Position numbers and translations under genes: made by a program
Notes under the pieces: model-generated
Told to the model about the DNA's origin: nothing
Database searches by the model: none
Seen by the model: the letters and a program-made list of their open reading frames with translations, nothing else
NCBI GenBank assembly: GCA_002418265.1
Contig: DIDS01000014.1
Span: forward strand, 72,588 to 136,587
Source: Acidimicrobiia bacterium UBA5794
Lineage (GTDB): Bacteria > Actinomycetota > Acidimicrobiia > Spongiisociales > UBA5794
DNA length: 64,000 nucleotides
Direction: 5' to 3'
Shown here: positions 44,884 to 64,000 of the stretch, piece by piece
How positions within the stretch are numbered: position 1 is the first letter of the stretch
How the letters are laid out: the number at the start of each line of letters is the position of its first letter

Positions 44884-45087
44884 TCAGTCACGTCGCGGCA
44901 GCACCCTGTAGAACAACACGGCGCAGATCGCCAAGCCGGTGGAAACGGCCGCGGCGGTCCAGCCGAGCTGCGGATCATGCGTCATGTACGCCTCAGCCGC
45001 GATCACGAGAAGGAACAGTTGGAGACTGACGATCAACACGACGAGAGCAAGGAGCGCAGTGCTTCCAGCCGACTTTCGTTTGGCCAT
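44884..45087 (-). CDS. Small two-TM membrane protein, unknown function
   Basis: 67-aa ORF whose ATG overlaps the Rieske gene stop (ATGA). Hydrophobic: LLALVVLIVSLQLFLLVIAAEAY. Confidence 0.35.
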   Translation of the reverse strand: MAKRKSAGSTALLALVVLIVSLQLFLLVIAAEAYMTHDPQLGWTAAAVSTGLAICAVLFYRVLPRRD

Positions 45088-45605
45088 CAGTGACTGCCTC
45101 CCGAAATGCCGACCGCCCATACCTCGCGGTCCCGAATGACCGTGTCGATACGGGTCAGCGGTCGTTCGGGTGGACCCGCTATCGCTTCACCCGCAACGCT
45201 GAAGAACCCTTCATGACAAGGACATTCGAACTCGAAGGTCTCGATGTCCCAGAACACCACACATCCGAGGTGCGTGCATTTCTGGCTGAAAGCAACGACC
45301 TCGTTGAGTTCGGTCCGGACGATGATTGCGGGATCCTTGTCCGTCGGGTACCGGAACAGTTTGCTTCGGCCCGGCGGGATGTCATCGATGGACATGATCA
45401 GTCTTTCAGGTCCGACGTTGGCCGGTCGAAGTGATGCTGCGAGAGCCATCAGTCCACCGCTTCCTGCAAGGGCAATGGACGCGTACGCCAAAAACCGCGT
45501 GAACTCTCGACGCGTGACCTCGTCTTCGCCCGCACTTTCATACGGAAAGTCCTTCTTCCATTGTGGATCGTCCACCGGTTGATCGGCTGTCGGCTGATCG
45601 GTCAC
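45087..45605 (-). CDS. Rieske [2Fe-2S] protein with twin-arginine signal / membrane anchor
   Basis: Box I CTHLGC and box II CPCHEG. Tat motif TRREFTRFLAY followed by a hydrophobic stretch. Best start is GTG at 45605 (GGAGGTGAT SD, 1 nt after the ferredoxin stop); the alternative ATGs at 45632 and 45656 overlap the ferredoxin gene. Confidence 0.8.
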   Translation of the reverse strand: MTDQPTADQPVDDPQWKKDFPYESAGEDEVTRREFTRFLAYASIALAGSGGLMALAASLRPANVGPERLIMSIDDIPPGRSKLFRYPTDKDPAIIVRTELNEVVAFSQKCTHLGCVVFWDIETFEFECPCHEGFFSVAGEAIAGPPERPLTRIDTVIRDREVWAVGISGGSH

Positions 45606-45606
45606 A

Positions 45607-46224
45607 TCACCTCCCAAGTCCGAAAGGATCATCTTGCCACTGGGTCGGTTTCTCACCGATCGTGATCATGACCGGTCCAGGCTCGCTGACCACGGCTGCA
45701 ACCTTTGTGCGTACGGTCTGGCGTCCGAATTGCCAATTCCGTACCAGCGTGCCAGTGCGCTTTGCTGAGAACTCCTCGTCGGATCCGTACCACAACGCCT
45801 CCGATGGACAGACGGACGCACACATCGGTTTCAACCCTTCGGAGGTGCGGTCGTAGCACATGTCGCATTTCATCATCTGGTCGAACGACGCAACGTACTT
45901 CGGGATGCCGAAAGGGCAGGCGTACACGCAGTTTGAGCACCCGATACATCGAGGCTTGAGGGAGGACTGGACGACACCAGACTCGTTCTGTTTGATTGCG
46001 TCAGCTGGGCACACCTCAGCACAGGTCGGGTCTTCACAATGCATGCACACGAGCGGGACGGTCTGTGTCGAAATCGCCCGATCAATCGTATCCAACTGGA
46101 TCAGGGAGACTCCGCGGTGGGTGTCACACTCGGCACAGGCAGCAACACAGGCACGACAGCCGATGCACCGGCTCTGATCGATGGCAAACACCGCCGTTGC
46201 CGGGTCATAGCCGCTTTGGATCAT
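45607..46224 (-). CDS. 4x[4Fe-4S] ferredoxin-type electron-transfer subunit (NrfC/HybA/DmsB-like)
   Basis: Four Cys clusters: [40 protein letters not shown] and CDMCYDR...CASVCP. No Tat signal and no TM segment. Confidence 0.85.
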
Positions 46225-48449
46225 TGGTCACCCTGCAACGTGAGGTCGCGGTCGTCGAGCAGGTCGCGGCGACCTGTGCCCTTCGCCACCTTGACGGCGC
46301 TGACCTTGTATTCCGGAATACCCGAGATCGGATCGATGGCACGTTGCGTCAGAAGATTTGCCGACTTGTCACTTGGCCAGTGATACGGGATGAAAACGGT
46401 ATCTGGTCGAATCGTCTCGACAACCTTTGCCGGAGCCACCATGGTTCCACGCCGCGAGGTGATGCGCACGATGTCGCCGTCGGTAACACCCAAATTGGTC
46501 GCAAGTAGGGGGTGCATCTCGCACAGGGGTTCGGGATACTGATCAACCAGTGCTCCGATCCTTCGAGTCTGTGTTCCCGACAGGTACTGGCTCACCACGC
46601 GCCCGGTCGTAAGGTACAGCGGGTAGTCCGAGTCAGGAACCTCGGCCGATTCGCGCCAAGGGGTCGGGATGAACTTCGCCCGCCCGTCCGGGTGGAAGAA
46701 CTTTCCTCCCTCATAGAGCCGTGGTGTTCCTGGATGTCCGATCTCGGGTGCAGGCCAGAACACACCCTGCTCCTTGACGACGCGATCCCACGTGATGCCG
46801 TAGTAGTCGGCAGTCCCGCCACGGGAGGCTCTCCTGAGTTCGTTGAAGATGTCTTCGGTTGTCTCGTAGTCAAAATACTGTTTGGCCCCCAGCCGATCGG
46901 CGATGTCGCAGATGATCTCCCAGTCCCGGCGAGCGTTGCCAGGCGGACTGACCGCAGCATTGATCTTGACGACCCGACCCTCAAGGGTCGTGACCGTACC
47001 TTCATCCTCCTCATGAAGCGAGCCCGGCAACACGACATCTGCGTGTTGGGCGGTCTCGGAGAGGAAGAAGTCGATGTTGACGTAGTAGTCGAGTTTCCCG
47101 AGCGCTTCTCGTGTGAAGTTGGCGTCGGGGAGCGAAACGAGCGGGTTGAAGCAGATCGACAGCAGACCCTTGATCCGACCCGCATGAATCTCATTCATGA
47201 TCTCCTGGGCCGTGAGACCCTTGCCGGGGAGCTGTGACTCTTCGATACCCCATACGTCGGCGATGAAGGCACGATCGTCCGGGTTCTCAATGTTGCGGTT
47301 GCCTGGCAACTGGTCGCATTTGTGGCCGTGCTCACGTCCACCCTGGCCATTGCCCTGTCCGGTGATCGTGCTCACGCCCGAGCCGGGTTTTCCATACTTG
47401 CCGGTCGCCAAGCCGAGATTGATGCATGCAAGAACGTTGTCGACACCCTTCGTGTGGTGTTCAATCCCACGTGCGTGCAGCAGCATCCCCGTCGCTGAGG
47501 TTCCCCAGATCTCGGCTGCTTCTTCGATTCTCGAAGCTGGCACCCCGGACACCCGCGCAGCCCAGTCAAGCGTTGCGCCCGACACGGCTGCTGCGGCCTC
47601 TTCGAAGCCGTTCGTATGGTTGTCGATGAAATCGTGATCGAGCCAATCGCGTTCAATGATGAGGTTGAACATGGCCGACAACACTGCGAGATCGGTACCC
47701 GGTCGGACGCCGAGAAATACGTCGGCGGTACGTGCGGCCGGGGTGACCCGGGGGTCCATGTAGATGAGCTTTGCGCCGTTGTCACGCGCACGCCAGATGT
47801 AGCTGGTTGTGATCGGTGCACATTCCGCGATGTTCGCCCCTGCCACGAACACGACATCGGTGAGAGGGATGTCTGACCAAGGGTTGGCAGCACGATCGAC
47901 GCCGAGCGCCTTCTTTCCAGCCGCACCCGCCGAGACCATGCACAAACGGCCGTTGTAGTCGAGGTTGGCCGTTCCGACGGCGACTCGTGCGAACTTGCCC
48001 ATGAGATACGATTTCTCGTTCGTGAGCGACACACCCGAAAGGACGGCGAAGGAGTCAGCCCCATGTTCGGCCTGGATCCGTTTGATCTCGGACGCGGTGC
48101 GGTCGAGTGCCGTTTCCCAGTTGATCTTCCTGAAGCCCCCAACCGCCGATTCGTCCCGCGCCAGTGGCTCGGTGAGTCGATCGGGATGGCTTCCTTGGAG
48201 ATACCTCTTCACCCCCTTGGGGCACAACTTGCCCTCGTTGAATGGGAAGTCGTATCGCGGTTCGAAACCGACGACCTTGTTGCCTGACACCTTCAACTTG
48301 ATGCCGCATTGCTGACCGCAGAAACAGCAATGCGTATCAACGACCTTGTCGATCTCGATCCCGGCGTCCCATCCCCCCGGTGGTGTACGGTTGAGATTCG
48401 GCCCATACGTGGCAATGAGCTGCTCTTCTGTGACGGGTGTCATCGCCAT
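46221..48449 (-). CDS. Molybdopterin (bis-MGD) oxidoreductase catalytic subunit, Nas/Nap-type nitrate-reductase-like, cytoplasmic
   Basis: N-terminal [4Fe-4S] motif [10 protein letters not shown]...GKLCPKG, Mo-ligand region [13 protein letters not shown], and [15 protein letters not shown]. The C-terminal MoCo-binding domain has [10 protein letters not shown]...IPYHW. No Tat signal. Start at MAMTPV (ATG 48449). Confidence 0.85.
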
Positions 48450-49498
48450 CAGCCGAACCCCCCAACCCGTGCCACTTGTGCCAATCCGACAACCCGACGC
48501 CTGCATTTGGGGCACACATCCTGATAGTGCTCTCCTGACTCGAACGAGTAGTCGAAGCCAACAGCAGGAAGCACCGCTTTGAGATCCTCCATCTGGAGAA
48601 CGCTTGCAAACCCTTCCCCGCATTGAATGCAGGTCTGCTCCCCGGTTGCCTCCGCAGCCTCCTTGTAGAACGACACCCCGATGTTTGCTGGTCGCTGGAA
48701 GATGTGGAAGAGCTTTCCGAACGGGATGTAGAGCAGCCCCAAAATGACCGTGAGGGCGTGCAGGTTCGTGATGAACGCGTAGAACTGTCCTCCCATCCAC
48801 AAACTGGATGCCGTCAGCATGAGCCCGGTGATCGATACCGCGAACAATCCGACCAAAGGTGCAAAGTCGGATGCCCGTTCGAGTGCAATAGCGCCGCGGT
48901 CACGCATCCGTCTGATCAAGAAAATCGCCACACCGGCGATGACGAGAAAGGCTGCGATGTTGAGCAGGTGGAACACCATGAAGCCGAAGAAGCCGCGCGA
49001 ATCGAATTGGATCGTTGCAAAGGGTCCGAGAAATGCTTCGTAGAGCCGTCCGCTCTCGTCCGCCGATTCGAAGTGGAGCCAACCGAACGTCAGGGGAAAC
49101 GTCACGAGCGCGGCGAGGACGCACCCCCAGAAAAGCAACTGGTGCGCAACCCACCTGACCTTGCTCCTCCCCGCGATGAAACGCTGCAGGAGGATGTTGT
49201 TGACCAGCTTTCCGACGAGGCCCACGGCATTTGACCCCCGTCGGCCTTTGGCCCGCATCGCCTCCCACCCGCGGCTGTTCAACATTGCCGTGGGAGGACG
49301 TCGAAGCCACACGATGTAGCGATACGCGGTCGCGAACACCGCAAGTACCGTTCCGAACAGATACGGGGCAAGTGCCGGATCGAACCATTGCAGACCACTC
49401 GAACCGATGTACACGCCAATGAGAACGAGGACCACCAGAATCGACCCAACGACGACCCCCCGTCGGTCGACTCTCGATGGTGTGGATGCAATCCCCAT
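48449..49498 (-). CDS. NarI-like (nitrate reductase gamma fold) membrane cytochrome b fused to a C-terminal CxxC...CxxC zinc-ribbon
   Basis: Five TM helices with conserved His residues, and C-terminal CIQCGEG...CPKCRRR. The stop overlaps the Mo-subunit start (TGATG). Start uncertain: ATG 49498, or GTG 49567, which would use the end of the repeat module as its SD. Confidence 0.7.
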
Positions 49499-51132: not shown

Positions 51133-52218
51133 CTATTGGACGGAGACCGCTTGGACGTCCAGTTCTGTTGCCTTGATCGAGACCCACACGGCAACACCCG
51201 GCACCAGTTCGAGAGAACGCGCCGACTCAGTTGTTACCTCGGCTATGAGAGCGAGGGGCGACGAAGTCGCAACCCGCGCGGTGTCCCCAAGCGGCTCAAT
51301 GTGGGCGATCGTCGTCTTCCACGTGTTCCTCGGACTGCCTTCGGGTTTGACGCGATGGAGCGCAACAGCCCTCGGGTGAAAAGTGACGATGACCTTGCCC
51401 GATACATCGTGGGCCGGCATGTAGAGGTCGTGACCGTCAACGTCGACGACTCCGTCCGCAGCTGTTCCCTCAAAGAGGTTCATGCCAGCGAGGTCAGCGG
51501 CATAGCGCGACTGGGGATTGAGCCGAATGTCGGCTGCCGTACCAGACTGACTGACCAGCCCTTCTTCAAGGATGCAAATTTCGTCCCCGAGCAAGAACGC
51601 CTCGGTCGGATCATGGGTGATCACGAGAGCCGGACCGTTGTACGAATTGAGGAACTCGGCGATGGTTCTTCTGGCGTGCGCCTTGGTTGTGACATCGAGC
51701 GATCCGAGAGGCTCATCAAGAATGAGAAGTCGTGGATCAGTCACCACGGCGCGAGCAAGGGCGACCCGCTGAGCCTCACCGCCCGACAGCTCGGCTGGTC
51801 TGCGTTCAGCCAGATCCGTGAGCCCGAGGCGATCCATCCACACATCCGTGCGCGATGCTGCATCGCCCTTCGAGATGCCAGTGCTCCGCAGCCCGAAAGC
51901 GATGTTGTCCCTTACGCTGAGATGTGGAAACAACAGACCGTCCTGGAACATGACACCGATGCCGCGTTGTGCCGGAGGAACGAACACACCTTGGTCTGTG
52001 TCTTCAAGGACCACTCCGCCAAGTTCAACCCTCCCTTCATCAATCGGTGAAAGCCCAACAAGGGCAGCGACGAGCGTCGACTTTCCTGCACCATTCGGGC
52101 CGAGAACGGCCAGAGTGGATCCGGAGGCGATCTCGATGGCCACATCGAGCCCGAACCCCTCGCTGCGAGCCACCTTGATGTCGGCCGAGAGTCCTTCGTT
52201 CTTCACGACACCCCCCAC
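51133..52218 (-). CDS. modC: Molybdate ABC transporter ATP-binding protein with C-terminal TOBE domain
   Basis: Walker A GPNGAGKST, signature LSGGEAQRVALARA, C-terminal Mop/TOBE domain. Confidence 0.85.
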   Translation of the reverse strand: MGGVVKNEGLSADIKVARSEGFGLDVAIEIASGSTLAVLGPNGAGKSTLVAALVGLSPIDEGRVELGGVVLEDTDQGVFVPPAQRGIGVMFQDGLLFPHLSVRDNIAFGLRSTGISKGDAASRTDVWMDRLGLTDLAERRPAELSGGEAQRVALARAVVTDPRLLILDEPLGSLDVTTKAHARRTIAEFLNSYNGPALVITHDPTEAFLLGDEICILEEGLVSQSGTAADIRLNPQSRYAADLAGMNLFEGTAADGVVDVDGHDLYMPAHDVSGKVIVTFHPRAVALHRVKPEGSPRNTWKTTIAHIEPLGDTARVATSSPLALIAEVTTESARSLELVPGVAVWVSIKATELDVQAVSVQ

Positions 52219-53009
52219 CAGCGATCACGAAGAAGAACCAGCACCGCGAGCGAAACGGCAACCATGACGAGGCTCATTGCGATCGCGGCGTTGCGGTTCG
52301 ATTCAAGTGCAACAAACACCGCGAGGGGCATCGTCTGGGTACGCCCTTGAACGTTGCCAGCAAAGGTCAGCGTTGCCCCGAACTCACCGAATGCCCGCGC
52401 CCAGGTAAGCGCCAATCCGGAAGCGAGCGACGGCATGATCAGGGGAATGGTCACACGCCGAAGAACCGTCCATCGTCCGGCACCAAGTGATTCGGCAGCT
52501 CCTTCGTACCTCCCGTCAATACTCCGCAGACCCGCTTCGACGGTGATCACGACAAAGGGCATCGCGACGAACGTGACCGCAACGATGACACCCCATATCG
52601 AGAATGGCAGGACGATACCGGTAGCGTCATACAGCGGCCCACCAACCACGCCTCTCCTTCCAAGGGCGAACAGCAGGGCGGCACCGCCGACCACCGGGGG
52701 CAGAACGATCGGGAGGAGTACCAGTGCACGAACGAGACTTTTGCCACGGAAGTCCGTCCTTGCCAGCAAGAACGCGATCGGGACACCGATGCAAAAAGAA
52801 ATCAAGGTTGCGGCAACCGATGCGACAAGCGAAATCTGAAGGGCATCAAGCACAACATCGTCAGCGAGAAGTGAACCGAGGTCACTCCATGGCGTTCGGA
52901 TCAGGAGACCAATGATCGGTAGGGCAAGGAACATGACGCCAACAACCCCAAGAGCCATGATCACGATCGGTGGGCGTTCGGTCCGATTCCAGCGTTGACG
53001 TCGGTTCAT
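52203..53009 (-). CDS. modB: Molybdate ABC transporter permease
   Basis: ModB/CysT-type permease core (LLPIVLPPVVGG...). Confidence 0.85.
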   Translation of the reverse strand: MNRRQRWNRTERPPIVIMALGVVGVMFLALPIIGLLIRTPWSDLGSLLADDVVLDALQISLVASVAATLISFCIGVPIAFLLARTDFRGKSLVRALVLLPIVLPPVVGGAALLFALGRRGVVGGPLYDATGIVLPFSIWGVIVAVTFVAMPFVVITVEAGLRSIDGRYEGAAESLGAGRWTVLRRVTIPLIMPSLASGLALTWARAFGEFGATLTFAGNVQGRTQTMPLAVFVALESNRNAAIAMSLVMVAVSLAVLVLLRDRWWGVS

Positions 53010-53022
53010 GATTGCTGCGGTG

Positions 53023-53799
53023 TCATGGGAGCTCGAATCCGAACGAGGCGAGAATCTCACGGCCGTCATCTGACATCACGAATGCAACGAACGCGGCAGC
53101 CACACCGGATTCGTCGGCTGAAACGACAGCAATCGGGTAGCGCACATCCACATTGTGCTCGTCGGGAATCAGAATCGAGTCAACCGAACCGGCCGCCGCA
53201 ACCACATCGGAGGTGTAGACGATCCCTGCATCAATCTCTCCCGATTCAATCTTGAGCGTCAGGGACCGGACGTTTGGTTCCTCGGTGTCCACCGACGCCA
53301 CAACACCGGCTGATGCGAGAGATTCGCGCGCATATGACCCACAGGGCACGGCTGGAAGGCATAGGCCTATGAAGAGGTTTTCGTTCCCGAAATCCTCAAG
53401 CCCTGAGACGGAGGCAGGGTTGCCGGGAGGGACGGCGATCACGACACTGTTGAGGGCAAACGTCTGGACCGGACCGGTAGCAGCATGCCAGTACAACACA
53501 TCTTCCATGGCTTCGCTGTTGGCCGATGCGAACACATCCACCGGTGCACCCTCGATGATCTGTGCAGCGAGACTGTTCGATCCGCCCGAGTTGATGTCGA
53601 CCACGACACCTGGCACTTGGGTTTCAAAGTCGGACGCAATCTCCTGAAAGGCCGGTTCGAGCGATGCGGCAACGGAGACCAACAATGTTGAGGTTTCCTT
53701 GTTGGTTGAGCATCCTGCAACGATTGCTGCGCACAGCGCAAGGACAACGGCGACGCGGGCGACTCCGGTTGCGGTCGCGGTTGGTCGGGCTCGGTGCAT
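53023..53799 (-). CDS. modA: Molybdate-binding periplasmic lipoprotein
   Basis: Lipobox VAGCS, and ModA-type SBP motifs (SLEPAF, GAPVDVFASA). Confidence 0.85.
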   Translation of the reverse strand: MHRARPTATATGVARVAVVLALCAAIVAGCSTNKETSTLLVSVAASLEPAFQEIASDFETQVPGVVVDINSGGSNSLAAQIIEGAPVDVFASANSEAMEDVLYWHAATGPVQTFALNSVVIAVPPGNPASVSGLEDFGNENLFIGLCLPAVPCGSYARESLASAGVVASVDTEEPNVRSLTLKIESGEIDAGIVYTSDVVAAAGSVDSILIPDEHNVDVRYPIAVVSADESGVAAAFVAFVMSDDGREILASFGFELP

Positions 53800-56671: not shown

Positions 56672-58635
56672 CCAGCAGCGGCAAGAACGGGGAGCTCAAA
56701 ACAACCGAGCGTGTGGTGGCACAGGGAGGCCCCGGGCGTGGAATGGGCGGCGGACAGATCGCCCAGAAACCGTTGGCATTCAAGGAGTCAGGGAAGCGGC
56801 TGCTGAACAGGCTCAGACCGCAAGGGCTGAAGGTGGCCTTTGTGTTGCTCGCAGCCATTGTGAGCGTCGGCCTCGCATCCCTTGGTCCACGCGTCCTCGG
56901 ACGTGCGACCGACCTGATCTTCGCCGGTGCCATCGGGGGCCAGCTGCCTGCGGGAATGACGAAGCAACAAGTGATTGATTCCGCAACAGCTTCGGGTAAT
57001 CACAAGCTGGCGGACATGCTCTCAGGCATCGACATTGTGCCGGGCACCGGCATCGACTTTCGAGCGGTCGGCACCGTTCTTCTCATCGTCATTGTCCTCT
57101 ACGTCGGATCAGCATTGCTGTCCTTCCTCCAGGGGTACCTCCTCAACGACGTCGTTCAGGACACAGTCATGAAACTTCGCGCTGAAGTTGAGGACAAGAT
57201 CCACAAACTGCCGCTCAGCTACTTCGACCGCCAACCCCGTGGTGAACTCCTCTCGCGGGTGACCAACGACATCGACAATGTGTCCCAAAGTCTTCAGCAG
57301 ACAATGAGTCAGCTCCTCACGTCGCTCCTCACCGTCGTCTTCGTGGTGATAATGATGGTTTTGATCTCCCCTGTCCTTGCTCTGATTGCTCTGATCACCA
57401 TCCCGGTAACCATGGTCATTGCTGCCCTGATCATGACGCGGTCCCAGAAACAGTTCGTGACCCAGTGGAGACGGACCGGGACGGTCAACGCCCAGGTCGA
57501 GGAGGCATTCACCGGGCATTCGCTGATCAAGGTGTTTGGACGCCAGGACGAAGTGCAAGACGTGTTCGAGTCCGAGAACGAGCAGCTCTATGAGGCAAGC
57601 TTCTCGGCCCAGTTCCTCTCCGGCCTGATCATGCCGATCATGATGTTCATTGGGAATTTGAACTATGTGATCATCGCGGTCATCGGGGGACTGCGGGTCG
57701 CGAGCGGAACGATGAGTCTCGGGGATGTGCAGGCGTTCATCCAATACTCGCGTCAGTTCACCCAGCCCGTCACCCAGATTGCCTCAATGGTGAACCTGCT
57801 CCAATCAGGGGTCGCATCAGCAGAACGCGTCTTCGAACTCCTCGACGCCGAGGAAGAAGAGCCAACCGACCATCATCCACGAATGGTCGACAACCCTCGT
57901 GGTCGCGTGGTGTTTGAGGACGTCTCGTTCCGCTACGAGCCGGACCAGCCCCTGATCGAGGATCTGTCGATGGTGGTCGAGCCCGGACAGACGGTTGCCA
58001 TCGTTGGACCCACCGGCGCCGGCAAGACGACGCTCGTGAACCTGATCATGCGCTTCTACGAACTCGACGGCGGTCGTATCACCCTCGATGGTGTCGACAC
58101 CTCGCTCATGCCGCGTGCTGACCTGCGATCCCGGATCGGGATGGTGCTCCAGGACACGTGGTTGTTCAAGGGAACGATCCGCGACAACATCGCGTACGGC
58201 AATCCCGATGCCACCGAAGACGAGCTCCTTGAAGCCGCGAAGGCAACGTTCGTGGACCGCTTCGTCCACAGCCTTCCCGACGGCTATGACACCGTCATCG
58301 ACGACGAGGGGACAAACATCTCATCTGGTGAAAAACAGCTCATCACCATCGCGAGAGCCTTCGTCGCGCAGCCAGCACTCCTGATTCTGGATGAAGCAAC
58401 GAGCTCTGTTGACACGCGCACCGAACTGCTCGTACAGCACGCCATGGCAGCGCTCCGATCCGATCGAACGAGCTTTGTCATTGCTCACCGGCTGTCAACG
58501 ATCCGGGACGCCGATCTCATCCTTGTGATGGAGGAGGGACGCATCGTCGAGCGGGGGACCCATGGGGAACTCCTCGATCGCAATGGAGCCTATGCGTCGC
58601 TGTACAACTCGCAATTCGGCATGTCTGACGTCTGA
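56668..58635 (+). CDS. ABC exporter, fused permease/ATPase (half-transporter 2; heterodimer partner)
   Basis: Walker A GPTGAGKTTL and signature SSGEKQL. ATGA overlap with the upstream gene. The last four codons (MSDV-stop) lie inside the palindromic heptamer array. Confidence 0.85.
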   Translation: MTSSGKNGELKTTERVVAQGGPGRGMGGGQIAQKPLAFKESGKRLLNRLRPQGLKVAFVLLAAIVSVGLASLGPRVLGRATDLIFAGAIGGQLPAGMTKQQVIDSATASGNHKLADMLSGIDIVPGTGIDFRAVGTVLLIVIVLYVGSALLSFLQGYLLNDVVQDTVMKLRAEVEDKIHKLPLSYFDRQPRGELLSRVTNDIDNVSQSLQQTMSQLLTSLLTVVFVVIMMVLISPVLALIALITIPVTMVIAALIMTRSQKQFVTQWRRTGTVNAQVEEAFTGHSLIKVFGRQDEVQDVFESENEQLYEASFSAQFLSGLIMPIMMFIGNLNYVIIAVIGGLRVASGTMSLGDVQAFIQYSRQFTQPVTQIASMVNLLQSGVASAERVFELLDAEEEEPTDHHPRMVDNPRGRVVFEDVSFRYEPDQPLIEDLSMVVEPGQTVAIVGPTGAGKTTLVNLIMRFYELDGGRITLDGVDTSLMPRADLRSRIGMVLQDTWLFKGTIRDNIAYGNPDATEDELLEAAKATFVDRFVHSLPDGYDTVIDDEGTNISSGEKQLITIARAFVAQPALLILDEATSSVDTRTELLVQHAMAALRSDRTSFVIAHRLSTIRDADLILVMEEGRIVERGTHGELLDRNGAYASLYNSQFGMSDV

Positions 58636-58662
58636 CGTCTGACGTCGGAGGTCGGACGTCAG
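58623..58662. repeat. Palindromic heptamer array (TCTGACG)x3-ggaggtcg-GACGTCAG that supplies the stop codons of both convergent genes (ABC exporter on +, mobB on -)
   Basis: gtctgacgtctgacgtctgacgtcggaggtcggacgtcagtg. Confidence 0.8.
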
Positions 58663-59228
58663 TGGGCGGCGCTTGCGGTGGGGTGCGTGCAGGCGAGCCC
58701 CGCGATGAATCCGGCGATTGCCGACACGGCAGTGGGATCGAGTACGGGAACACTGACCGACCAACTCGCATCACTCACGATCGCAGAAAGCTCGGTCGGG
58801 TCGCATAGAAGATCGTTGCTGTTGTCGGCTCTGTGTACCTCGATCTTGGGGTAGGTCGATGACCGTCCTCCCTCGATGAGCACAAGGTCAGCGTCGGCCA
58901 TGTGTGCACAAACAACCGCGTCGATGTCGGGTGAGCGGCTCGGCGCCCGAAACACTGCGACCTGTACCGGACTCATCCCGACCACAACTTCGGCACCGGA
59001 ACGAGAGAAGCGATCGGTGTCCTTGTCTGCCAGGTCAAACGCACTGCTGCGATGGTGGTGCTTGATCACCCCAACTCGGAAACCGCGGTGCGCGAGATTC
59101 GGAACCAGTGCCTCGATCAAGGTTGTTTTTCCCGATCCCGACCGGCCAACGATGGCAACGACGGCCGGTGATGTTTCGCCGTACCCGCCGAACAAAGGAA
59201 AGATATCGCTCTGGCCATTTGACATCAT
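58659..59228 (-). CDS. mobB: Molybdopterin-guanine dinucleotide biosynthesis adapter protein MobB
   Basis: P-loop VAIVGRSGSGKTTL and MobB-type VIKHHH. Start at MMSNGQ with an AAGGAGG SD. Confidence 0.8.
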   Translation of the reverse strand: MMSNGQSDIFPLFGGYGETSPAVVAIVGRSGSGKTTLIEALVPNLAHRGFRVGVIKHHHRSSAFDLADKDTDRFSRSGAEVVVGMSPVQVAVFRAPSRSPDIDAVVCAHMADADLVLIEGGRSSTYPKIEVHRADNSNDLLCDPTELSAIVSDASWSVSVPVLDPTAVSAIAGFIAGLACTHPTASAAH

Positions 59229-59353
59229 TCCGCCTCCTTGGTCGTGGGCCGTAGCCTGCGAGTCCACACAGTAGCCATCGAGAATCTATTTATGAGTTGG
59301 AATCATATGAACTACGAAACTGTGCTAACGTACCACAGCGAACGGAGGCCCAT

Positions 59354-62300
59354 GTGAAAAAAGTTACAAGGCGTAAGTTTCTCAAAGGATCAGCCGTCGC
59401 TGCTGCTGGGGCATACGTCGCCACACAAGCATTTGACTCGGCCTTCACCTTTTTTCAGGCGGCACCCGGTATCGACAATCCCCTGGTGTTCTACCCGACC
59501 CGGGATTGGGAATCGATCTACCGCGACCAATACGCCTACGACGGATCCTTCCCGGTCGTGTGTGCTCCAAACGACACTCACATGTGCCGTCTTCGCGCTT
59601 TCACACGAAACGGTGTCGTCATCAGGCTTGAGCAGAACTACGACGGCGGTAACTACAAAGACCCCGCAGGTAACTCCTCAACGGTCGCCTGGAACCCCCG
59701 CGGCTGCCTCAAGGGTTACACGCTCCATCGCAGGGTCTACGGACCGTACCGACTCAGAACCCCGATGCTACGCGCCGGATGGAAGCAGTGGGCGGACGAC
59801 GGCTTCCCATCCCTTTCGGACAATCCAGAGTTGCGGATTCAGTATCGCTTCGACAGCCGCTCCGAGGACGAATTCATTCCGATGGAGACCGCCGAAATCG
59901 ATGACTACGTCGCGCGGGGTCTCGAAGCGATCGCAGCAACCTACTCCGGTGAGGAGGGCAGACGCCGGCTGATCGATGAAGACGGCTACGAGCCTGAGAT
60001 GCTCGAGTTCTGGGAAGAGTCAGGCGTCCGGACGATGAAGTTCGGATCGTCCCTGCCCATCCACGGTGTTGCCGGAAAGTTCGGTCTCGGCAGATTCGCA
60101 AACATGCTCTCCCTTCTCGATGCCAGGGTGCGTGGTGTGGGTGAGGATGAGGCTGTTGGAGCCAGGGAGTGGTCCGAGTACACGTGGCGAGGCGACCAGG
60201 CACCCGGCTTCCCGTTTGTGCACGGTGTTCAGGCCGCCGAAACCGACATGTCAGATCTCCGTCAGTCGAGGCTGCTCATCCAGGTGGGCAAGAACCTCGT
60301 TGAGAACAAGATGCCAGAGAGCCACTTCTTTCAGGAGATCATCGAGCGCGGCGGCAAGGTCGTGTCCATCGTTCCCGAGTATGGGCCCCAGGCATCCAAA
60401 GCCGACTACTGGATCCCAGTCCGAGCCGGACTCTCTGACACCGCTTTGTTCCTCGGTATTGCCAAGGCGCTGATCGATCGGCGGCTCTACGACACCGACT
60501 TCCTCAAGCGTTTCACCGACTTCCCACTCCTGGTTCGTCTCGATACGCTTCAGCGACTCCGAGCCGATGAAGTGTTTGCCGGATATACACCCAAGCTCGG
60601 TTCTGGCGCGGTGAGTTTCACGGTCCACGGCATGACAGCGGAGCAGTACGCACAAATCGGTGACCGGGTCGTCATGTCAGAACAAGGTGAACTGGTTGCC
60701 ATCACACGTGAGGACATTGGCAACCGGATGTCTGCCGCGGGGGTCGACCCCACGCTCGACTTCCGCGGCGAAGTCACGCTCGCCGACGGATCGACTGTTG
60801 AGGTTGCGACGGTGCTTTCGATGTACCGCGATCACCTCAAGGACTACGACCTCGACACCGTGATCGAAATCACCGGTTCGCCGAGGGATCTCGTTGAACG
60901 GCTCATTGAGGACATCGCCACGATCAAGCCGATGGGTATCCACGTCGGTGAGGGCATCAACCACTACTTCCACGCAACACTCCACAACCGAGCCGTCTAC
61001 ATGGTGTCGATGCTCACCGGCAACATCGGGGTCCCGGGTTCGGGCGTCAGCACCTGGGCCGGTAACTACAAGGGCGGTATCTTCCAAGCCGCCCCATGGT
61101 TCGGGCCGGGGGTCGGTGGCTACGTCAATGAGGATCCGTTCCACCCTCTTCTCAACGTGGACGATCGTTACACCGCCGAGACGACCAAACACAGGGTCCA
61201 TGGTGAGGAGACCTCGTATTGGGGATACGGCGACAAGCCGCTTGTCGTTGACACGCCAAGTGAAGGCCGCAAGGTCTTCACCGGAACGACCCACCTCCCC
61301 ACACCGACAAAGGTGATGTGGTACAACAACGCCAACCTGATCAATCAGGCGAAATGGGCGTATGAGCTCGTCCACAACGTGAATCCGAAGGTTGACATGA
61401 TCGTCGACCAACAGATCGAATGGACCGCCTCGGCGGAGAACGCCGACGTCATCTTCCCCGTCAACAGCTGGATGGAGTTCGAGACACTCGAAATGGCGGG
61501 CTCGTGCTCAAATCCATTCCTCCAGCTCTGGAAGGGAGGCATCGAACCCCTCTACGACAGCCGTGACGACATCGCCGTCTTTGCCGGTGTTGCCGGGGCG
61601 CTCACCGCCCACACCGGTGAACAGTTGTTCGCGGACTACTTCACATTCGCAACCGAGGGTCGACCCGAGGTGTACCTCGACCGCGTTCTTGCAGCCTCGT
61701 TCACCACCGAGGGTTACACCGTGGACGACATCATGAACGGGAACTACGGCGAACCCGGCGGTGCGCTGATGCTGTACCGCACGCTGCCTCGAATTCCTTT
61801 CTTCGAACAGGTACACGACGACGAGCCGTTCTCCACCGATACCGGCCGGATGCATGCCTATGTCGATACGCCCGAAGCCATCGAGTATGGCGAGAACATG
61901 ATCGTCCATAGGGAAGCGATCGAGGCAACAGCGTATCTTCCCAACGTCATCGTGTCGACAAGCCCATACCTGCGACCCCAGTCCTACGGCATAGCCCTTG
62001 ACGACATTGATGCGGGTCGGCGCCAGGTGAGAAACGTGATGATGCCGTGGAGCGAGGTCAAGGCGACACGCAATCCGCTCTTCGAGAGCGGCTATCAGTT
62101 CCTGTGCCTGACACCCAAATCGCGTCACTCGGTGCACTCGTCATGGGCAGTGACGGATTGGCACTGGATCTGGAACTCAAACTTCTCCGACCCGTACCGT
62201 GAGGACAAACGTCTCCCAGGCGTCGGCGATACCCAACTCCACATGAATCCTGACGATGCCAGAGCTCTCGGGATCGACAACGGCGACTATGTCTGGGTGG

Positions 62301-62824
62301 ATGCCAACCCTGCCGACCGACCCTTCACCGGATGGTCCGCAGACCATGAATATTCAGACGTGGCACGCCTGATGGCTCGGGTGTCGTACAACTTGGCGTA
62401 CCCCGCAGGGGTAACCATGCTCAAGCACGCCTTTTACATGGCAACACCCCTGACGGTCAAGGCCCAGAAGGAACGCCCGGACGGTCGAGCACTGTCACCG
62501 AATGGATACCAAGCGAGCTTCCGGCACGGTTCCCAGCAGAGCATCACCCGAGGCTGGGCTCCCCCGATGCACCAGACGGACAGCCTGTTCCACAAGAAGG
62601 CGGGAGGGATGACGTTCATCTTCGGCTTTGACGTCGACAACCACGCCATCAACACCTGTCCGAAGGAAACGCTCGTCAAGATCACCAAGGCAGAGTCCGG
62701 TGGGCTCAACGGGCAGGGTGCATGGGAACCGGGAACCACGGGTGAGAGCCCTGGGTCTGAGAACGCCGCGATGCAGCGCTACATCATGGGCGACTTCACC
62801 ACGGTGCAGGGAGGTACGCCATGA
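59354..62824 (+). CDS. Tat-exported NarG/NxrA-like molybdopterin oxidoreductase alpha subunit (periplasmic-Nar/Nxr/type-II DMSO-reductase lineage), 1157 aa
   Basis: Twin-arginine signal VTRRKFLKGSAVAAAGAYVATQAF. N-terminal NarG-like block ...CAPNDTHMCRLRAFTRNGVVIRLEQ...NPRGCLKGYTLHRRVYGPYRL aligns to NarG ([25 protein letters not shown]...PRGCPRGASYSWY). Size and collinearity with NarG. GTG start with a GGAGG SD. Confidence 0.8.
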   Translation: MKKVTRRKFLKGSAVAAAGAYVATQAFDSAFTFFQAAPGIDNPLVFYPTRDWESIYRDQYAYDGSFPVVCAPNDTHMCRLRAFTRNGVVIRLEQNYDGGNYKDPAGNSSTVAWNPRGCLKGYTLHRRVYGPYRLRTPMLRAGWKQWADDGFPSLSDNPELRIQYRFDSRSEDEFIPMETAEIDDYVARGLEAIAATYSGEEGRRRLIDEDGYEPEMLEFWEESGVRTMKFGSSLPIHGVAGKFGLGRFANMLSLLDARVRGVGEDEAVGAREWSEYTWRGDQAPGFPFVHGVQAAETDMSDLRQSRLLIQVGKNLVENKMPESHFFQEIIERGGKVVSIVPEYGPQASKADYWIPVRAGLSDTALFLGIAKALIDRRLYDTDFLKRFTDFPLLVRLDTLQRLRADEVFAGYTPKLGSGAVSFTVHGMTAEQYAQIGDRVVMSEQGELVAITREDIGNRMSAAGVDPTLDFRGEVTLADGSTVEVATVLSMYRDHLKDYDLDTVIEITGSPRDLVERLIEDIATIKPMGIHVGEGINHYFHATLHNRAVYMVSMLTGNIGVPGSGVSTWAGNYKGGIFQAAPWFGPGVGGYVNEDPFHPLLNVDDRYTAETTKHRVHGEETSYWGYGDKPLVVDTPSEGRKVFTGTTHLPTPTKVMWYNNANLINQAKWAYELVHNVNPKVDMIVDQQIEWTASAENADVIFPVNSWMEFETLEMAGSCSNPFLQLWKGGIEPLYDSRDDIAVFAGVAGALTAHTGEQLFADYFTFATEGRPEVYLDRVLAASFTTEGYTVDDIMNGNYGEPGGALMLYRTLPRIPFFEQVHDDEPFSTDTGRMHAYVDTPEAIEYGENMIVHREAIEATAYLPNVIVSTSPYLRPQSYGIALDDIDAGRRQVRNVMMPWSEVKATRNPLFESGYQFLCLTPKSRHSVHSSWAVTDWHWIWNSNFSDPYREDKRLPGVGDTQLHMNPDDARALGIDNGDYVWVDANPADRPFTGWSADHEYSDVARLMARVSYNLAYPAGVTMLKHAFYMATPLTVKAQKERPDGRALSPNGYQASFRHGSQQSITRGWAPPMHQTDSLFHKKAGGMTFIFGFDVDNHAINTCPKETLVKITKAESGGLNGQGAWEPGTTGESPGSENAAMQRYIMGDFTTVQGGTP

Positions 62825-63141
62825 CCGCCACCTGGGAACCGGTACGCCTCCTTGACGTTCGACCAGAGATCGACCCGGCCTTCAAGGTCGAAAAGGATGT
62901 TGAGGCCGAGGATCCCCTGGAGCTCGTCGGTGTCACATACCCCACCGATCGGGAGGCAGACACGATTGCCGCCCGGTGCTTCGTCGAGGAATATGCGATG
63001 ATCGGATGGCGTGCCGATGACATCGCCGCCCTCTTCACATCACCCGAGTATGCAGCGCTGTACCGCATGTTTTCGGCATACGGATTCGGCTTCGTCCATG
63101 AGGCCATTGCCTCCGTCTTTCCAGATCAGAGGAGAGCCTGA
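62821..63141 (+). CDS. Hypothetical 106-aa acidic protein inserted between the alpha and beta subunit genes, translationally coupled on both sides
   Basis: ATGA overlap with the alpha-subunit stop and TGATG overlap with the beta-subunit start; no recognisable motif. Confidence 0.5.
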   Translation: MTATWEPVRLLDVRPEIDPAFKVEKDVEAEDPLELVGVTYPTDREADTIAARCFVEEYAMIGWRADDIAALFTSPEYAALYRMFSAYGFGFVHEAIASVFPDQRRA

Positions 63142-64000
63142 TGGCACAGGTACACAACTGGCATCTCGGTCGTGACATGGAGTACCCGTACACCGGTGGC
63201 ACGTATGACCGGCAGTTCGCCGCCGTATTCAACATCAACCGATGCATTGCGTGTCAGACATGCACGATGTCGTGCAAATCCACATGGACCCACTCCCCCG
63301 GTCAGGAGCTCATGTGGTGGAACAATGTCGAAACCAAACCCTACGGTGGCTATCCGACCCATTGGGATTCACGATTGCTCTCCATGCTCGAGACGGCAAA
63401 CCCCGGTGGCCAGACCTGGACCAAGGAACCGGGCCCAACATCTGCCCCGTATGGCCAATTTAGTGGGCAGACCATTTTTGAGGCCGCAGACCTCGGTCAA
63501 CGCGTCCTCGGCTACATCCCAGAAGAGAACGATTGGAAGGCACCAAACCGCTTTGAGGACCACGCAACCGGCGCCCCAAGGACCGGTGCATCGCTCCCCG
63601 AGCATGAAGGCTGGTTCTTCTATCTGGCAAGGATCTGCAACCACTGCACCTACCCCGGATGTCTCGCGGCGTGCCCGCGAAACGCCATCTACAAGCGCCC
63701 CGAGGACGGCATCGTGCTCATCGATCAGGAACGCTGCCGTGGCTATCAGAAGTGCGTCGAAGGTTGTCCGTACAAGAAATCGATGTATCGCCCGACAACG
63801 CGAACCTCAGAAAAGTGCATTGCGTGCTACCCCCGAATCGAGGGAAGCGATCCCCTCACCGGCGGTGACCCCATGGAGACCCGATGCATGACAGCCTGCG
63901 TTGGCAAGATTCGGATGCAGGGTCTCGTCAACGTGAACACCGACGGCACCTGGATGAACGAGCCGTCGCACCCCCTGTACTACATGGTGCATGAAGAGAA
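63141..64000 (+). CDS. NarH/NxrB-like Fe-S beta subunit (partial, runs off the window end)
   Basis: N-terminus MAQVHNWHLGRDMEYPY...FNINRCIACQTCTMSCKSTWT...WWNNVETKPYGGYP matches NarH (MKIRSQVGMVLNLDKCIGCHTCSVTCKNVWT...FNNVETKP). Later Cys clusters: CNHCTYPGCLAACP, CRGYQKCVEGCP and CIACYPRIE. The frame stays open to position 64000. It is not in the ORF track because it is truncated. Confidence 0.75.
   Translation, partial: MAQVHNWHLGRDMEYPYTGGTYDRQFAAVFNINRCIACQTCTMSCKSTWTHSPGQELMWWNNVETKPYGGYPTHWDSRLLSMLETANPGGQTWTKEPGPTSAPYGQFSGQTIFEAADLGQRVLGYIPEENDWKAPNRFEDHATGAPRTGASLPEHEGWFFYLARICNHCTYPGCLAACPRNAIYKRPEDGIVLIDQERCRGYQKCVEGCPYKKSMYRPTTRTSEKCIACYPRIEGSDPLTGGDPMETRCMTACVGKIRMQGLVNVNTDGTWMNEPSHPLYYMVHEE

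What the first reader, a model, noticed from the sequence alone, without database searches (positions are those of the whole stretch)
59354..64000. Tat-exported NarG/NxrA-like enzyme with non-canonical FS0 ligand set (C-x3-D-x3-C) and an unknown ORF wedged between alpha and beta subunits
The 1157-aa alpha subunit aligns block-for-block with the NarG N-terminus. The canonical His-x3-Cys-x3-Cys FS0 ligands are replaced by Cys-x3-Asp-x3-Cys (CAPNDTHMC), and the distal Cys is conserved (NPRGCLKG).
- A twin-arginine signal places the enzyme on the outer face of the membrane, like periplasmic Nar, Nitrospira/anammox-type Nxr and type-II DMSO-reductase enzymes.
- From memory, an Asp-for-Cys substitution in this cluster has been reported for the periplasmic NXR lineage. 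The additional His-to-Cys change is something I have not seen described.
- A 106-aa acidic ORF sits between alpha and beta with start/stop overlaps on both sides. Known narGH, nxrAB and type-II ABDC operons place A and B adjacent.
- The gamma/chaperone genes would lie beyond the window.
Basis: partly seen in the sequence, partly recalled or inferred. Interest (0 to 1): 0.75.

Follow-up and report, generated by a model that had tools for sequence, protein, structure and literature searches.

The report
Periplasmic nitrite-oxidoreductase-type operon with extra gene
This is an actinobacterial operon for an outward-facing molybdenum enzyme of the nitrite-oxidoreductase type: its "odd" iron-sulfur ligands are the published norm for that enzyme type, but the small gene between its two main subunits is real, widely conserved and still unnamed.

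Summary
The sequence features are all present. There is a Tat-signal NarG-like alpha subunit (59354-62824, 1156 aa), a C70-x3-D74-x3-C78...C118 motif, and a 106-aa acidic ORF (62821-63141) that overlaps the alpha stop and the beta start.

The alpha subunit is a full-length homologue (1471 bits, about 55-57% identity) of Kuenenia NxrA (PDB 7B04). That crystal structure has the same FS0 ligands (C67, D71, C75, C115), and its paper states that the NarG/EbdA histidine corresponds to Cys67. The "non-canonical FS0" is therefore already described and is the clade norm.

The same genome continues with nxrB, a NarJ-type chaperone, a haem-b NxrC with Met/Lys ligands, and an unknown membrane protein.

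The 106-aa ORF ("X") is a real gene:
- Ka/Ks is 0.09.
- The AlphaFold model is a confident four-helix domain.
- The family has at least 334 clusters at 50% identity.
- It has no Pfam, NCBIfam, PDB or fold match.
- It lies between A and B in 127 of 128 A-then-B loci from many phyla.
- It is absent from anammox loci and is not annotated in Nitrospira.

I found no description of it in the literature I searched. The enzyme is ordinary. X is a modest, genuine lead. Its function (probably assembly of the A-B pair before Tat export) and the enzyme's direction in vivo are inferred only.

The parts
59354..62824 (+). nxrA-type catalytic alpha subunit (1156 aa), Mo-bis-MGD plus FS0, Tat-exported
   Evidence: ORF and start. 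1471 bits, full length, to Kuenenia NxrA 7b04_B, against 180 bits to PcrA, 139 to EbdA and 99 to NarG. Pfam Molybdopterin. Gene callers give the same 1156-aa product.
59354..59434 (+). Twin-arginine signal peptide region (MKKVTRRKFLKGSAVAAAGAYVATQAF)
   Evidence: TIGR01409 scores 18.8 against a cut-off of 16.7. Pfam TAT_signal E=2.9e-4. R6 and R7 are invariant in alignment A2. The cleavage site was not determined.
59561..59587 (+). FS0 ligand motif C70-A-P-N73-D74-T-H-M-C78 (3Cys/1Asp set; N73 is the substrate-coordinating Asn)
   Evidence: Translation. Same residues as KsNXR-A C67, N70, D71 and C75.
59705..59707 (+). Distal FS0 cysteine C118 (NPRGC)
   Evidence: Equivalent to KsNXR-A C115.
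60194..60196 (+). Predicted molybdenum ligand Asp281 (WRGDQAPG)
   Evidence: Aligned with Kuenenia WHGDQAPG, where Asp275 coordinates Mo. The motif is present in 153 of 166 loci.
62821..63141 (+). X: 106-aa acidic, cytoplasmic-type small protein of an unnamed conserved family, translationally coupled to nxrA and nxrB
   Evidence: Overlaps and SD sites. Family of at least 334 clusters at 50% identity. Between A and B in 127 of 128 loci. Ka/Ks 0.086. AF2 pLDDT 85.7 with four helices. No Pfam, NCBIfam, PDB or fold match.
63141..64000 (+). nxrB-type Fe-S beta subunit, first 286 of 408 codons (runs off the window)
   Evidence: Translation. Fer4_11 and TIGR03478 hits. Full 408-aa gene in the identical contigs L001 and L002.
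58659..59267 (-). mobB (molybdopterin-guanine dinucleotide biosynthesis protein B), divergent from nxrA
   Evidence: Pfam MobB E=2e-33. TIGR00176 scores 121.9 against a cut-off of 76.2.
51133..53799 (-). modCBA molybdate ABC transporter
   Evidence: TIGR01256 modA, TIGR02141 modB and TIGR01581 are above their cut-offs. The ATPase matches modC (212 bits against a cut-off of 285) and tungstate WtpC (224 against 440), both below cut-off, so it is modC-like only.

Best explanation
The region is the 5' part of an operon nxrA-X-nxrB-nxrD-nxrC-U in an Acidimicrobiia genome. It encodes a Nitrospira/anammox-type, periplasm-facing nitrite:nitrate oxidoreductase.

How it works (inferred from the Kuenenia structure):
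- NxrA receives Mo-bis-MGD and FS0 in the cytoplasm with help from the NarJ/TorD-type NxrD.
- NxrA pairs with the signal-less Fe-S subunit NxrB, and the pair is exported through Tat.
- Outside the membrane the pair docks on NxrC, a haem-b protein with Met/Lys ligation held by a C-terminal membrane helix.
- Electrons pass Mo - FS0 (C70/D74/C78/C118) - FS1 to FS4 - haem b.

The 3Cys/1Asp FS0, with Cys where NarG has His, is the normal and structurally documented ligand set of this clade.

The reaction is nitrite/nitrate interconversion. The direction in vivo cannot be read from sequence. For this apparently heterotrophic organism I lean slightly (about 55:45) towards outward-facing nitrate reduction.

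X is a genuine small cytoplasmic-type protein made together with A and B. My preferred role, at about 0.45, is an assembly or escort factor for forming the A-B pair before Tat export. This is inference only.
For: Shown:
- Full-length match to KsNXR-A, 1471 bits, against at most 180 bits for PcrA, EbdA and NarG. About 55-57% identity to Kuenenia-type NxrA, the same range the Kuenenia paper gives for NOB NxrA.
- Tat motif.
- FS0, Asn and Mo-Asp residues identical to the crystal-structure ligands.
- The window is identical to contigs L001 and L002 over 11,180 nt. Those contigs continue with NxrB (408 aa), a Nitrate_red_del/TIGR03482-type chaperone, an EB_dh protein and a 322-aa membrane protein.
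- NxrC aligns with KsNXR-C with Met and Lys at the haem-ligand positions. It has N- and C-terminal hydrophobic segments.
- mobB, modABC and tatA/tatC are nearby.
- No terminator-like site between A, X and B.

X as a real gene tied to this enzyme:
- Ka/Ks 0.086, against 0.076 for A, 0.097 for D and 0.080 for C.
- D31, P32 and E57 invariant across 144 sequences.
- pLDDT 85.7.
- Found in 127 of 128 A-then-B loci.
- All five family members looked up through X itself lie between a Molybdopterin gene and a Fer4_11 gene.

Lean towards nitrate reduction:
- Oligopeptide transporter and PDH genes in the window.
- NarX/NarL-like or Crp/Fnr-like regulators upstream of related loci.
- KsNXR is bidirectional in vitro.
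Against: - No biochemical or expression data exist for this enzyme or for X.
- The alpha subunit scores far below the curated cut-offs of the type II DMSO reductase model (316 against 985) and the NarG model (124 against 1084). No curated model names it, so the assignment rests on the PDB homologue.
- The characterised close relatives (Kuenenia, Nitrospira, Nitrospina) oxidise nitrite in vivo, which argues against my lean towards nitrate reduction.
- Kuenenia NXR assembles without any X. X therefore cannot be universally required.
- A dedicated NarJ-type chaperone is already present, which weakens the chaperone idea for X.
- X has no detectable similarity to any known chaperone.
Confidence: 0.8

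Rival explanations
1. The complex works in vivo as a nitrite oxidoreductase. Nitrite is oxidised outside the membrane and electrons go through NxrC into the aerobic respiratory chain, either for supplementary energy (mixotrophy) or for nitrite detoxification.
For: The closest characterised homologues are nitrite-oxidising enzymes. The 3Cys/1Asp FS0 and the Met/Lys high-potential haem b are conserved. MAG surveys label such genes nxrA in Chloroflexota, Marinisomatota and Planctomycetota.
Against: There are no cytochrome c, cupredoxin or bd-like oxidase genes in the 20 kb around the operon. The gene content looks heterotrophic. Related loci carry NarXL-like or Crp/Fnr-like regulators, which in my general knowledge are typical of anaerobic respiration. 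The enzyme type is reversible. No authors have experimental evidence for either direction in such non-NOB homologues.
Confidence: 0.4
2. X is a small structural (fourth) subunit that is co-exported with NxrAB by hitchhiking and remains in the mature complex.
For: It is translationally coupled between A and B. It is near-universal in this operon type. It evolves at the same rate as the structural NxrC. Kuenenia has its own lineage-specific extra subunit, NXR-T.
Against: The crystallised Kuenenia ABC complex is complete and active without it. X also evolves at the rate of the chaperone NxrD. There is no way here to model a complex.
Confidence: 0.25
3. The enzyme acts on a different substrate, as other type II DMSO reductases do (chlorate, perchlorate, selenate, DMS, or hydrocarbon hydroxylation).
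For: The best NCBIfam hit is the generic type II DMSO reductase alpha model. One NxrB cluster-mate of a related locus is auto-annotated 'chlorate reductase subunit beta'.
Against: Only 139-180 bits to EbdA and PcrA against 1471 to NxrA. Asn73 is conserved, whereas the Kuenenia paper notes Ile at this position in EbdA. The FS0 ligand type matches NXR and not Pcr or Ebd.
Confidence: 0.05
4. The 106-aa ORF is a chance ORF in a GC-rich intergenic or overlapping region and is not a gene.
For: High-GC genomes throw up many spurious ORFs (see the ORF list). X matches no Pfam or NCBIfam family.
Against: Ka/Ks is 0.086 at Ks about 1. Homologues down to about 30% identity occur in many phyla at the same position. 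There are invariant residues, a strong SD, a confident fold prediction, and independent gene calls on 14 contigs.
Confidence: 0.02

Closest known systems
Kuenenia stuttgartiensis NXR (NxrABC, PDB 7B04; Chicano et al. 2021, PMC8387239)
   Same: Full-length homologous alpha subunit (1471 bits, about 55-57% identity). Tat signal. Identical FS0 ligand set (3Cys/1Asp with Cys at the NarG-His position), Asn and Mo-Asp. Homologous NxrB. EB_dh-type NxrC with Met/Lys haem-b ligands. NarJ-type chaperone in the cluster.
   Different: The anammox gene order is nxrC-B-D-(321-aa Cys-rich protein)-A, with no X even at permissive thresholds. Kuenenia NxrC is shorter (322 aa). The NxrC here has a predicted C-terminal membrane helix. 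Kuenenia adds NXR-T and forms tubules. There is no U-type membrane protein in the anammox loci.
Nitrospira / Nitrospina periplasmic NXR
   Same: Same clade by the identity tiers reported in PMC8387239 (about 60% to Kuenenia). Tat export of A with hitchhiking B. Asp in FS0 was noted earlier for this lineage.
   Different: In N. moscoviensis, nxrA and nxrB carry consecutive locus tags, and nxrC and the TorD-like chaperone lie elsewhere. N. gracilis is described as nxrABC with the chaperone elsewhere. No X is annotated, but I could not fetch these genomes to test this directly.
Nitrobacter nxrA-nxrX-nxrB-narJ-narI
   Same: A gene sits between the alpha and beta genes of a nitrite oxidoreductase operon.
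   Different: The Nitrobacter enzyme is the cytoplasm-facing NarG type. From my own knowledge, not tested here, its NxrX is a peptidyl-prolyl isomerase-like protein. None of 144 X-family members hits a PPIase Pfam family, so the two 'X' genes are analogous in position only.
Type II DMSO reductases (EbdABCD, PcrABCD, SerABDC, DdhABDC, ClrABDC)
   Same: Tat-exported alpha, four-cluster beta, EB_dh haem-b gamma and NarJ-like delta. The B-D-C order here matches the 'ABDC' type.
   Different: Only 139-180 bits to EbdA and PcrA. These have a His-x3-Cys-x3-Cys FS0 (alignment). The alpha scores below the TIGR03479 cut-off (316 against 985). No X is described for them.
E. coli NarGHJI
   Same: Distant homology of alpha and beta (99 bits to NarG; narH 176 bits) and the same cofactor logic.
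   Different: Cytoplasm-facing with no functional Tat export. FS0 is 3Cys/1His. The gamma is the dihaem membrane protein NarI rather than EB_dh. narG and narH are adjacent.

Membership tests
Nitrospira/anammox-type periplasmic NXR (alpha subunit NxrA) | Full-length, high-scoring homology to a structurally and biochemically characterised NxrA | tested here: met
   7b04_B, 1471 bits, residues 3-1151 of 1156. About 55-57% identity to Kuenenia-type loci.
Nitrospira/anammox-type periplasmic NXR (alpha subunit NxrA) | N-terminal twin-arginine signal (periplasmic orientation) | tested here: met
   TRRKFLKG. TIGR01409 is above its cut-off and Pfam TAT_signal is just below. tatA and tatC are in the window.
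Nitrospira/anammox-type periplasmic NXR (alpha subunit NxrA) | FS0 ligands Cys-x3-Asp-x3-Cys...Cys (3Cys/1Asp), substrate Asn, Mo-ligand Asp | tested here: met
   C70, N73, D74, C78, C118 and D281, against KsNXR C67, N70, D71, C75, C115 and D275.
Nitrospira/anammox-type periplasmic NXR (alpha subunit NxrA) | Partner subunits: four-cluster NxrB without signal peptide; EB_dh-type haem-b NxrC with Met/Lys ligands | tested here: met
   Fer4_11 and TIGR03478-like NxrB. NxrC matches 7b04_C with Met and Lys aligned. The individual Cys ligands of FS1 to FS4 were not checked.
Nitrospira/anammox-type periplasmic NXR (alpha subunit NxrA) | Catalyses nitrite oxidation (and nitrate reduction) | not testable with these tools
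   No activity or expression data. Authors of related MAG work state that no experimental evidence exists for such homologues.
Nitrospira/anammox-type periplasmic NXR (alpha subunit NxrA) | Placement inside the clade in a phylogeny with Nitrospira, Nitrospina, Nitrotoga and Hydrogenobaculum references | not tested
Only identity tiers were compared.
Type II DMSO reductase alpha (NCBIfam TIGR03479) | Score at or above the curated cut-off | tested here: not met
   316.1 bits against a cut-off of 984.75. Homologous, but not a member as that model defines the family.
Respiratory nitrate reductase NarG (TIGR01580) | Curated cut-off; His-x3-Cys-x3-Cys FS0; cytoplasmic orientation | tested here: not met
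   124.3 bits against a cut-off of 1084. Cys and Asp replace His and Cys. A Tat signal is present.
NarJ/TorD-type redox-enzyme maturation proteins (candidate family for X) | Sequence or profile similarity to Nitrate_red_del / TorD | tested here: not met
   No Pfam hit for X or for 144 family members. hhalign of X against the operon's own NarJ-like proteins gives probability 0.2%.
Nitrobacter NxrX (candidate family for X) | Homology to the protein encoded between nxrA and nxrB of Nitrobacter | tested here: inconclusive
   No Nitrobacter NxrX sequence was available for direct comparison. Indirectly, no PPIase Pfam family is hit by any of 144 X members. That NxrX is PPIase-like is my recollection.
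X family (unnamed; this work) | About 80-residue core with invariant D-P and E-E motifs (D31, P32, E56/E57), encoded between NxrA- and NxrB-type genes | tested here: met
   Alignment A3. Profile hits. Position in 127 of 128 loci.

The most novel reading that the evidence does not exclude
X is a previously unrecognised, dedicated component of most periplasmic NXR/NAR-type enzymes outside the anammox and Nitrospira lineages. It would be an assembly or escort factor, or a small subunit, required to build or export the NxrA-NxrB pair. Its presence or absence would mark a functional split within the clade, for example between facultative nitrate/nitrite interconverters and specialised nitrite oxidisers.
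Probability: 0.3. Interest if true: 0.6.

Novelty: new variant of a known kind. Interest (0 to 1): 0.38.

Why it matters
Periplasmic NXR-type genes are counted as "nxrA" or "narG" in many metagenome surveys of organisms that are not known nitrite oxidisers. Nobody knows which direction these enzymes run in.

The headline claim of the finding, a new FS0 ligand set, adds nothing, because it is the published ligand set of the Kuenenia structure.

What is useful is a conserved, unnamed small gene that sits between the alpha and beta genes in this operon type across Acidimicrobiia, Chloroflexota, Proteobacteria, Acidobacteriota, Planctomycetota, NC10-like and Marinimicrobia-like loci. The two best-studied systems lack it or do not annotate it. 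It could serve in three ways:
- as a cheap marker for sub-classifying these enzymes;
- as a missing accessory factor to include when anyone tries heterologous expression of an NXR;
- as a candidate for a new Pfam family.

The all-Cys FS0 variant seen in passing may matter for the redox tuning discussed in the Kuenenia paper.

Tried and rejected
- kustd1701 and kustd1702, which lie between nxrA and nxrB in Kuenenia numbering, looked like possible X homologues. I rejected this. Anammox-type loci read nxrC-B-(269-aa NarJ-like)-(321-aa Cys-rich)-A. The X profile finds nothing there even with --max and E up to 10. hhalign of X against the 321-aa family gives probability 0.6%.
- X as a NarJ/TorD relative was rejected.
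- The AlphaFold-database fold search (afdb50) was not available.
- A Pfam scan of 144 family members found only scattered chance hits.
- A literature search for Nitrospira defluvii locus tags found nothing. Searches for a gene 'between nxrA and nxrB' or 'nxrX' found only the Nitrobacter case. A search for Acidimicrobiia nxr found nothing relevant.
- I could not fetch Nitrospira or Nitrospina loci. The single genome-collection scan returned only the 80 loci closest to the query.
- Rfam found no family in the window, including no Moco riboswitch. The promoter/terminator scan found nothing in 58600-64000.
- I considered a substrate other than nitrite/nitrate and rate it unlikely (see the rival explanations).

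Full report
1. OBSERVATION

The ORF list and the raw sequence show three tightly packed genes on the + strand.
- The alpha gene starts at GTG 59354, with GGAGG 5 nt upstream, and ends at TGA 62822-62824. It has 1156 residues.
- The 106-aa ORF, here called X, starts at ATG 62821, so ATGA overlaps the alpha stop. It is preceded by GGGAGG and ends at TGA 63139-63141.
- The beta gene starts at ATG 63141 (TGATG overlap, AGGAG upstream) and runs off the window.
- X has a calculated pI of 4.4.
- The motif CAPNDTHMC is at 59561-59587 and NPRGC is at 59693-59707.
- Residue numbers are C70, N73, D74, C78 and C118, and the predicted Mo ligand is D281 in WRGDQAPG.
- The Tat motif TRRKFLKG passes TIGR01409 and narrowly misses the Pfam cut-off.
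- The HMMER alignment to perchlorate reductase PcrA places its His, Cys and Cys opposite C70, D74 and C78.

2. WHAT THE ENZYME IS

Curated family models do not name the alpha subunit. It scores 316 bits on the type II DMSO reductase model (cut-off 985) and 124 bits on NarG (cut-off 1084).

Against solved structures the picture is clear. It scores 1471 bits over the full length to chain B of 7B04, the Kuenenia stuttgartiensis nitrite oxidoreductase subunit A. By comparison it scores 180 bits to PcrA, 139 to EbdA and 99 to E. coli NarG. Identity to Kuenenia-type NxrA over gap-poor columns is about 55-57%. The Kuenenia paper reports about 60% between Kuenenia NxrA and the NxrA of Nitrospira and Nitrospina, about 40% to Nitrotoga and Hydrogenobaculum, and about 20% to the Nitrobacter type, NAR and EbdA. 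The protein therefore sits in the Nitrospira/anammox tier of periplasmic NXR.

Closest database relatives are unnamed 'molybdopterin-dependent oxidoreductases' of Acidimicrobiia MAGs (73-93% identity), followed by Chloroflexota and Proteobacteria.

3. THE FS0 CLAIM

The Kuenenia structure paper (PMC8387239) makes three relevant statements:
- An Asp at this position had been noted previously.
[quoted passage not shown] The ligands are listed as C67, D71, C75 and C115.

Kuenenia reads CSPNDTHAC and the window reads CAPNDTHMC.

I fetched 166 related loci. The motif was readable in 142 of them. Of these, 104 have C-x3-D-x3-C, 38 have C-x3-C-x3-C and none has His. This part of the finding is already known.

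4. THE REST OF THE OPERON

The exact X protein is encoded on 14 public contigs. Two of them, a JGI contig and the 2.73-Mb contig JAOSJN010000001.1 of GCA_027494075.1, are identical to the window over all 11,180 shared bases.

Downstream of X they carry:
- NxrB (408 aa, Fer4_11);
- a 244-aa NarJ-type chaperone (Pfam Nitrate_red_del; TIGR03482 'DMSO reductase type II chaperone' 75 bits);
- a 332-aa EB_dh protein;
- a 322-aa polytopic membrane protein with no family, here called U.

The EB_dh protein matches Kuenenia NxrC (7b04_C) and EbdC. Met and Lys sit at the positions of the Kuenenia haem-b ligands M155 and K305. It has an N-terminal hydrophobic segment and a C-terminal hydrophobic helix at residues 294-321.

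Upstream lie mobB (divergent), two ABC exporter genes with a TetR regulator, and modABC. Further up there is a second molybdoenzyme cluster with tatA and tatC. No terminator-like site separates A, X and B.

5. THE SMALL ORF X

Word-based search found only five close relatives. An exhaustive HMMER search with their alignment found 334 clusters at 50% identity with E up to 1e-3, and 67 with E up to 1e-10. Members are 61-195 aa long with a median of 103. A second profile search found 701 clusters at 90% identity. Every named one is 'hypothetical protein' and none has a Pfam domain.

Across 144 diverse members the core is about 80 residues. D31, P32 and E57 are invariant. E56, G62, F72, P75 and G88 are nearly so.

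X is under purifying selection. Against the 88%-identical locus L007:

| Gene | Ka/Ks |
|---|---|
| X | 0.086 |
| A | 0.076 |
| B | 0.042 |
| D | 0.097 |
| C | 0.080 |

Ks is about 1.0. In more distant pairs X diverges about as fast as D and C.

AlphaFold2 with this alignment gives mean pLDDT 85.7 and 96-98 over residues 41-100. The model has four helices (44-60, 65-72, 78-87, 89-99) after an extended acidic N-terminal segment. X has no hydrophobic segment, and I see no signal-peptide-like N-terminus by eye in its sequence.

Nothing known resembles it:
- Pfam and NCBIfam give no hit.
- Pfam on all 144 members gives only chance hits.
- PDB by profile gives none.
- Foldseek against PDB gives a best E of 2.4.

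6. WHERE X OCCURS

In 80 loci from one-genome-per-species GTDB contigs, X lies between A and B wherever the sequence extends far enough. These loci come from Acidimicrobiia, Chloroflexota/Dehalococcoidia, Alpha-, Beta- and Gammaproteobacteria, Acidobacteriota, Planctomycetota and Elusimicrobia.

Over all fetched loci, 128 have A followed by B, and 127 of those have X in between. The median distance from the A stop to the B start is 278 nt. The single exception is L044, 'bacterium UCB2'. Six of the 128 are copies of the window sequence.

Five family members looked up starting from X itself all sit between a Molybdopterin gene and a Fer4_11 gene, followed by Nitrate_red_del and EB_dh genes.

Loci fetched with Kuenenia NxrA peptides split in two:
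- 24 anammox-type loci (82-97% identical to Kuenenia) show the order nxrC-nxrB-chaperone-(321-aa Cys-rich protein)-nxrA wherever more than nxrA is present (17 loci). None has X, even at permissive thresholds.
- The remaining loci all have A-X-B where B is present.

The Kuenenia genes kustd1701 and kustd1702 ('unknown' and 'hypothetical') are therefore the Cys-rich protein and the chaperone. They are not X.

For Nitrospira I could only use the literature. In N. moscoviensis, nxrA and nxrB have consecutive MicroScope and RefSeq locus tags, and the chaperone and nxrC are elsewhere. N. gracilis is described as nxrABC.

Organism names attached to NxrB cluster-mates suggest that other X-bearing lineages are NC10-like, 'bacterium HR11' and Marinimicrobia. 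A five-gene 'Nar' cluster of the NC10 relative CSP1-5, whose alpha groups with Nitrospira and anammox NxrA, has been reported without comment on the extra gene.

Nitrobacter has nxrA-nxrX-nxrB. It belongs to the cytoplasmic NarG-type lineage, and by my recollection its NxrX is PPIase-like. No X member hits a PPIase family.

7. HOW IT PROBABLY WORKS

By homology with the Kuenenia structure (inferred):
- Cytoplasmic maturation of NxrA uses NxrD.
- NxrA pairs with the signal-less NxrB and the pair is exported through Tat.
- The pair docks on membrane-tethered NxrC.
- Electrons are transferred Mo - FS0 - FS1 to FS4 - haem b.

Direction is open. The Kuenenia enzyme runs both ways in vitro. Authors dealing with non-NOB homologues say there is no experimental evidence either way.

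I lean slightly towards nitrate reduction here for three reasons:
- The window looks heterotrophic, with Opp-type peptide transporter and PDH E1 genes.
- No cytochrome c or terminal oxidase genes accompany the operon.
- Related loci carry NarX/NarL-like or Crp/Fnr-like regulators.

For X, I considered these facts:
- It is translationally coupled between A and B.
- It is cytoplasmic-type and acidic.
- It evolves at the rate of a chaperone or gamma subunit.
- It is dispensable in Kuenenia, where the gene order differs and B is made before A.

From these I prefer an assembly or escort factor for forming the A-B pair before Tat export (about 0.45). A small co-exported subunit is next (about 0.25), and anything else takes the remainder. 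None of this is shown.

8. COMPARISON, NOVELTY AND VERDICT

The enzyme is a new member of a known kind, periplasmic NXR/NAR of the Nitrospira/anammox type. Homologues in non-nitrifiers are already reported in surveys.

The FS0 ligand set is already known.

The architecture A-X-B-D-C(-U), with a conserved unnamed X, is a variant that I could not find described in the searchable literature. That literature is incomplete, and NOB genomes could not be checked directly.

Interest is modest. A specialist would not be surprised by the enzyme, but might want X named, modelled with NxrA and NxrB, and included in expression constructs.

Noticed in passing
Loci L111, L121-L126, L129-L135, L137-L139, L141-L143, L145-L147, L149-L152, L155-L161, L163-L166: 38 related NxrA-type genes carry an all-cysteine FS0 motif CSPNCTHEC (C-x3-C-x3-C) instead of the Asp form. 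The Kuenenia paper mentions only 3Cys/1Asp or 3Cys/1His. One marine sub-cluster (order C-A-X-B-D, about 90% identical within the cluster) has NxrB cluster-mates named Marinimicrobia.
   Followed up: partly
window 43041-48800 (- strand): A second molybdoenzyme cluster. It holds a NasC/Fdh-alpha-like protein (817 bits on the NasC model, below its cut-off of 1100; the real start is probably the Met of '[10 protein letters not shown]' near 48450, with no Tat motif). It is followed by a 4Fe-4S protein (45607-46224), a Rieske protein (45087-45656), an HPP-family membrane protein (44271-44978), TatA/B (43751-44356) and TatC (43041-43754).
   Followed up: partly
L002 13284-14252 (just beyond the window's 3' end, same genome): U is a 322-aa polytopic membrane protein directly after nxrC with no Pfam or NCBIfam family. 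Homologues were found only in the Acidimicrobiia/Chloroflexota sub-clade of loci. Conserved residues are E29, R34, R38 and H42-I-P-G45. It could be the membrane partner of the complex.
   Followed up: partly
L088 2839-10362 and other anammox-type loci L087-L110: Anammox nxr loci read nxrC-nxrB-chaperone-(321-aa Cys-rich protein)-nxrA. Kuenenia's kustd1701 and kustd1702 are therefore the Cys-rich protein and the chaperone. Homologues of the 321-aa protein also occur in several non-anammox loci (L078, L111-L164 subset, L169).
   Followed up: partly
L167 1-1647; L169 1-2682; L172 599-2008; L173 880-2478: Related loci carry NarX-like sensor kinases (PilJ-HAMP-GAF-HisKA_3) with NarL-type regulators, or Crp/Fnr-type regulators, upstream of nxrA. 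One has NxrC fused to two cytochrome c domains.
   Followed up: no
L044 (QEVS01000008.1, 'bacterium isolate UCB2') 11450-11515: This is the only one of 128 A-then-B loci without X. nxrB starts about 65 nt after nxrA.
   Followed up: no
window 63141-63170 and NxrB N-termini of other loci: The window's NxrB begins MAQVHNWHLGR, like anammox NxrB (MTLVHNWHLGR). The NxrB N-termini inspected from a sample of the other X-bearing lineages begin M..V(Y/F)NWQ(L/I).
   Followed up: no
L002 17036-20321 (downstream, same genome): A TetR regulator, two HGD-D (2-hydroxyacyl-CoA dehydratase-type) genes and a BcrAD/BadFG-type activator lie a few kb after the nxr operon. These are hallmarks of an anaerobic radical dehydratase or reductase system.
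   Followed up: no
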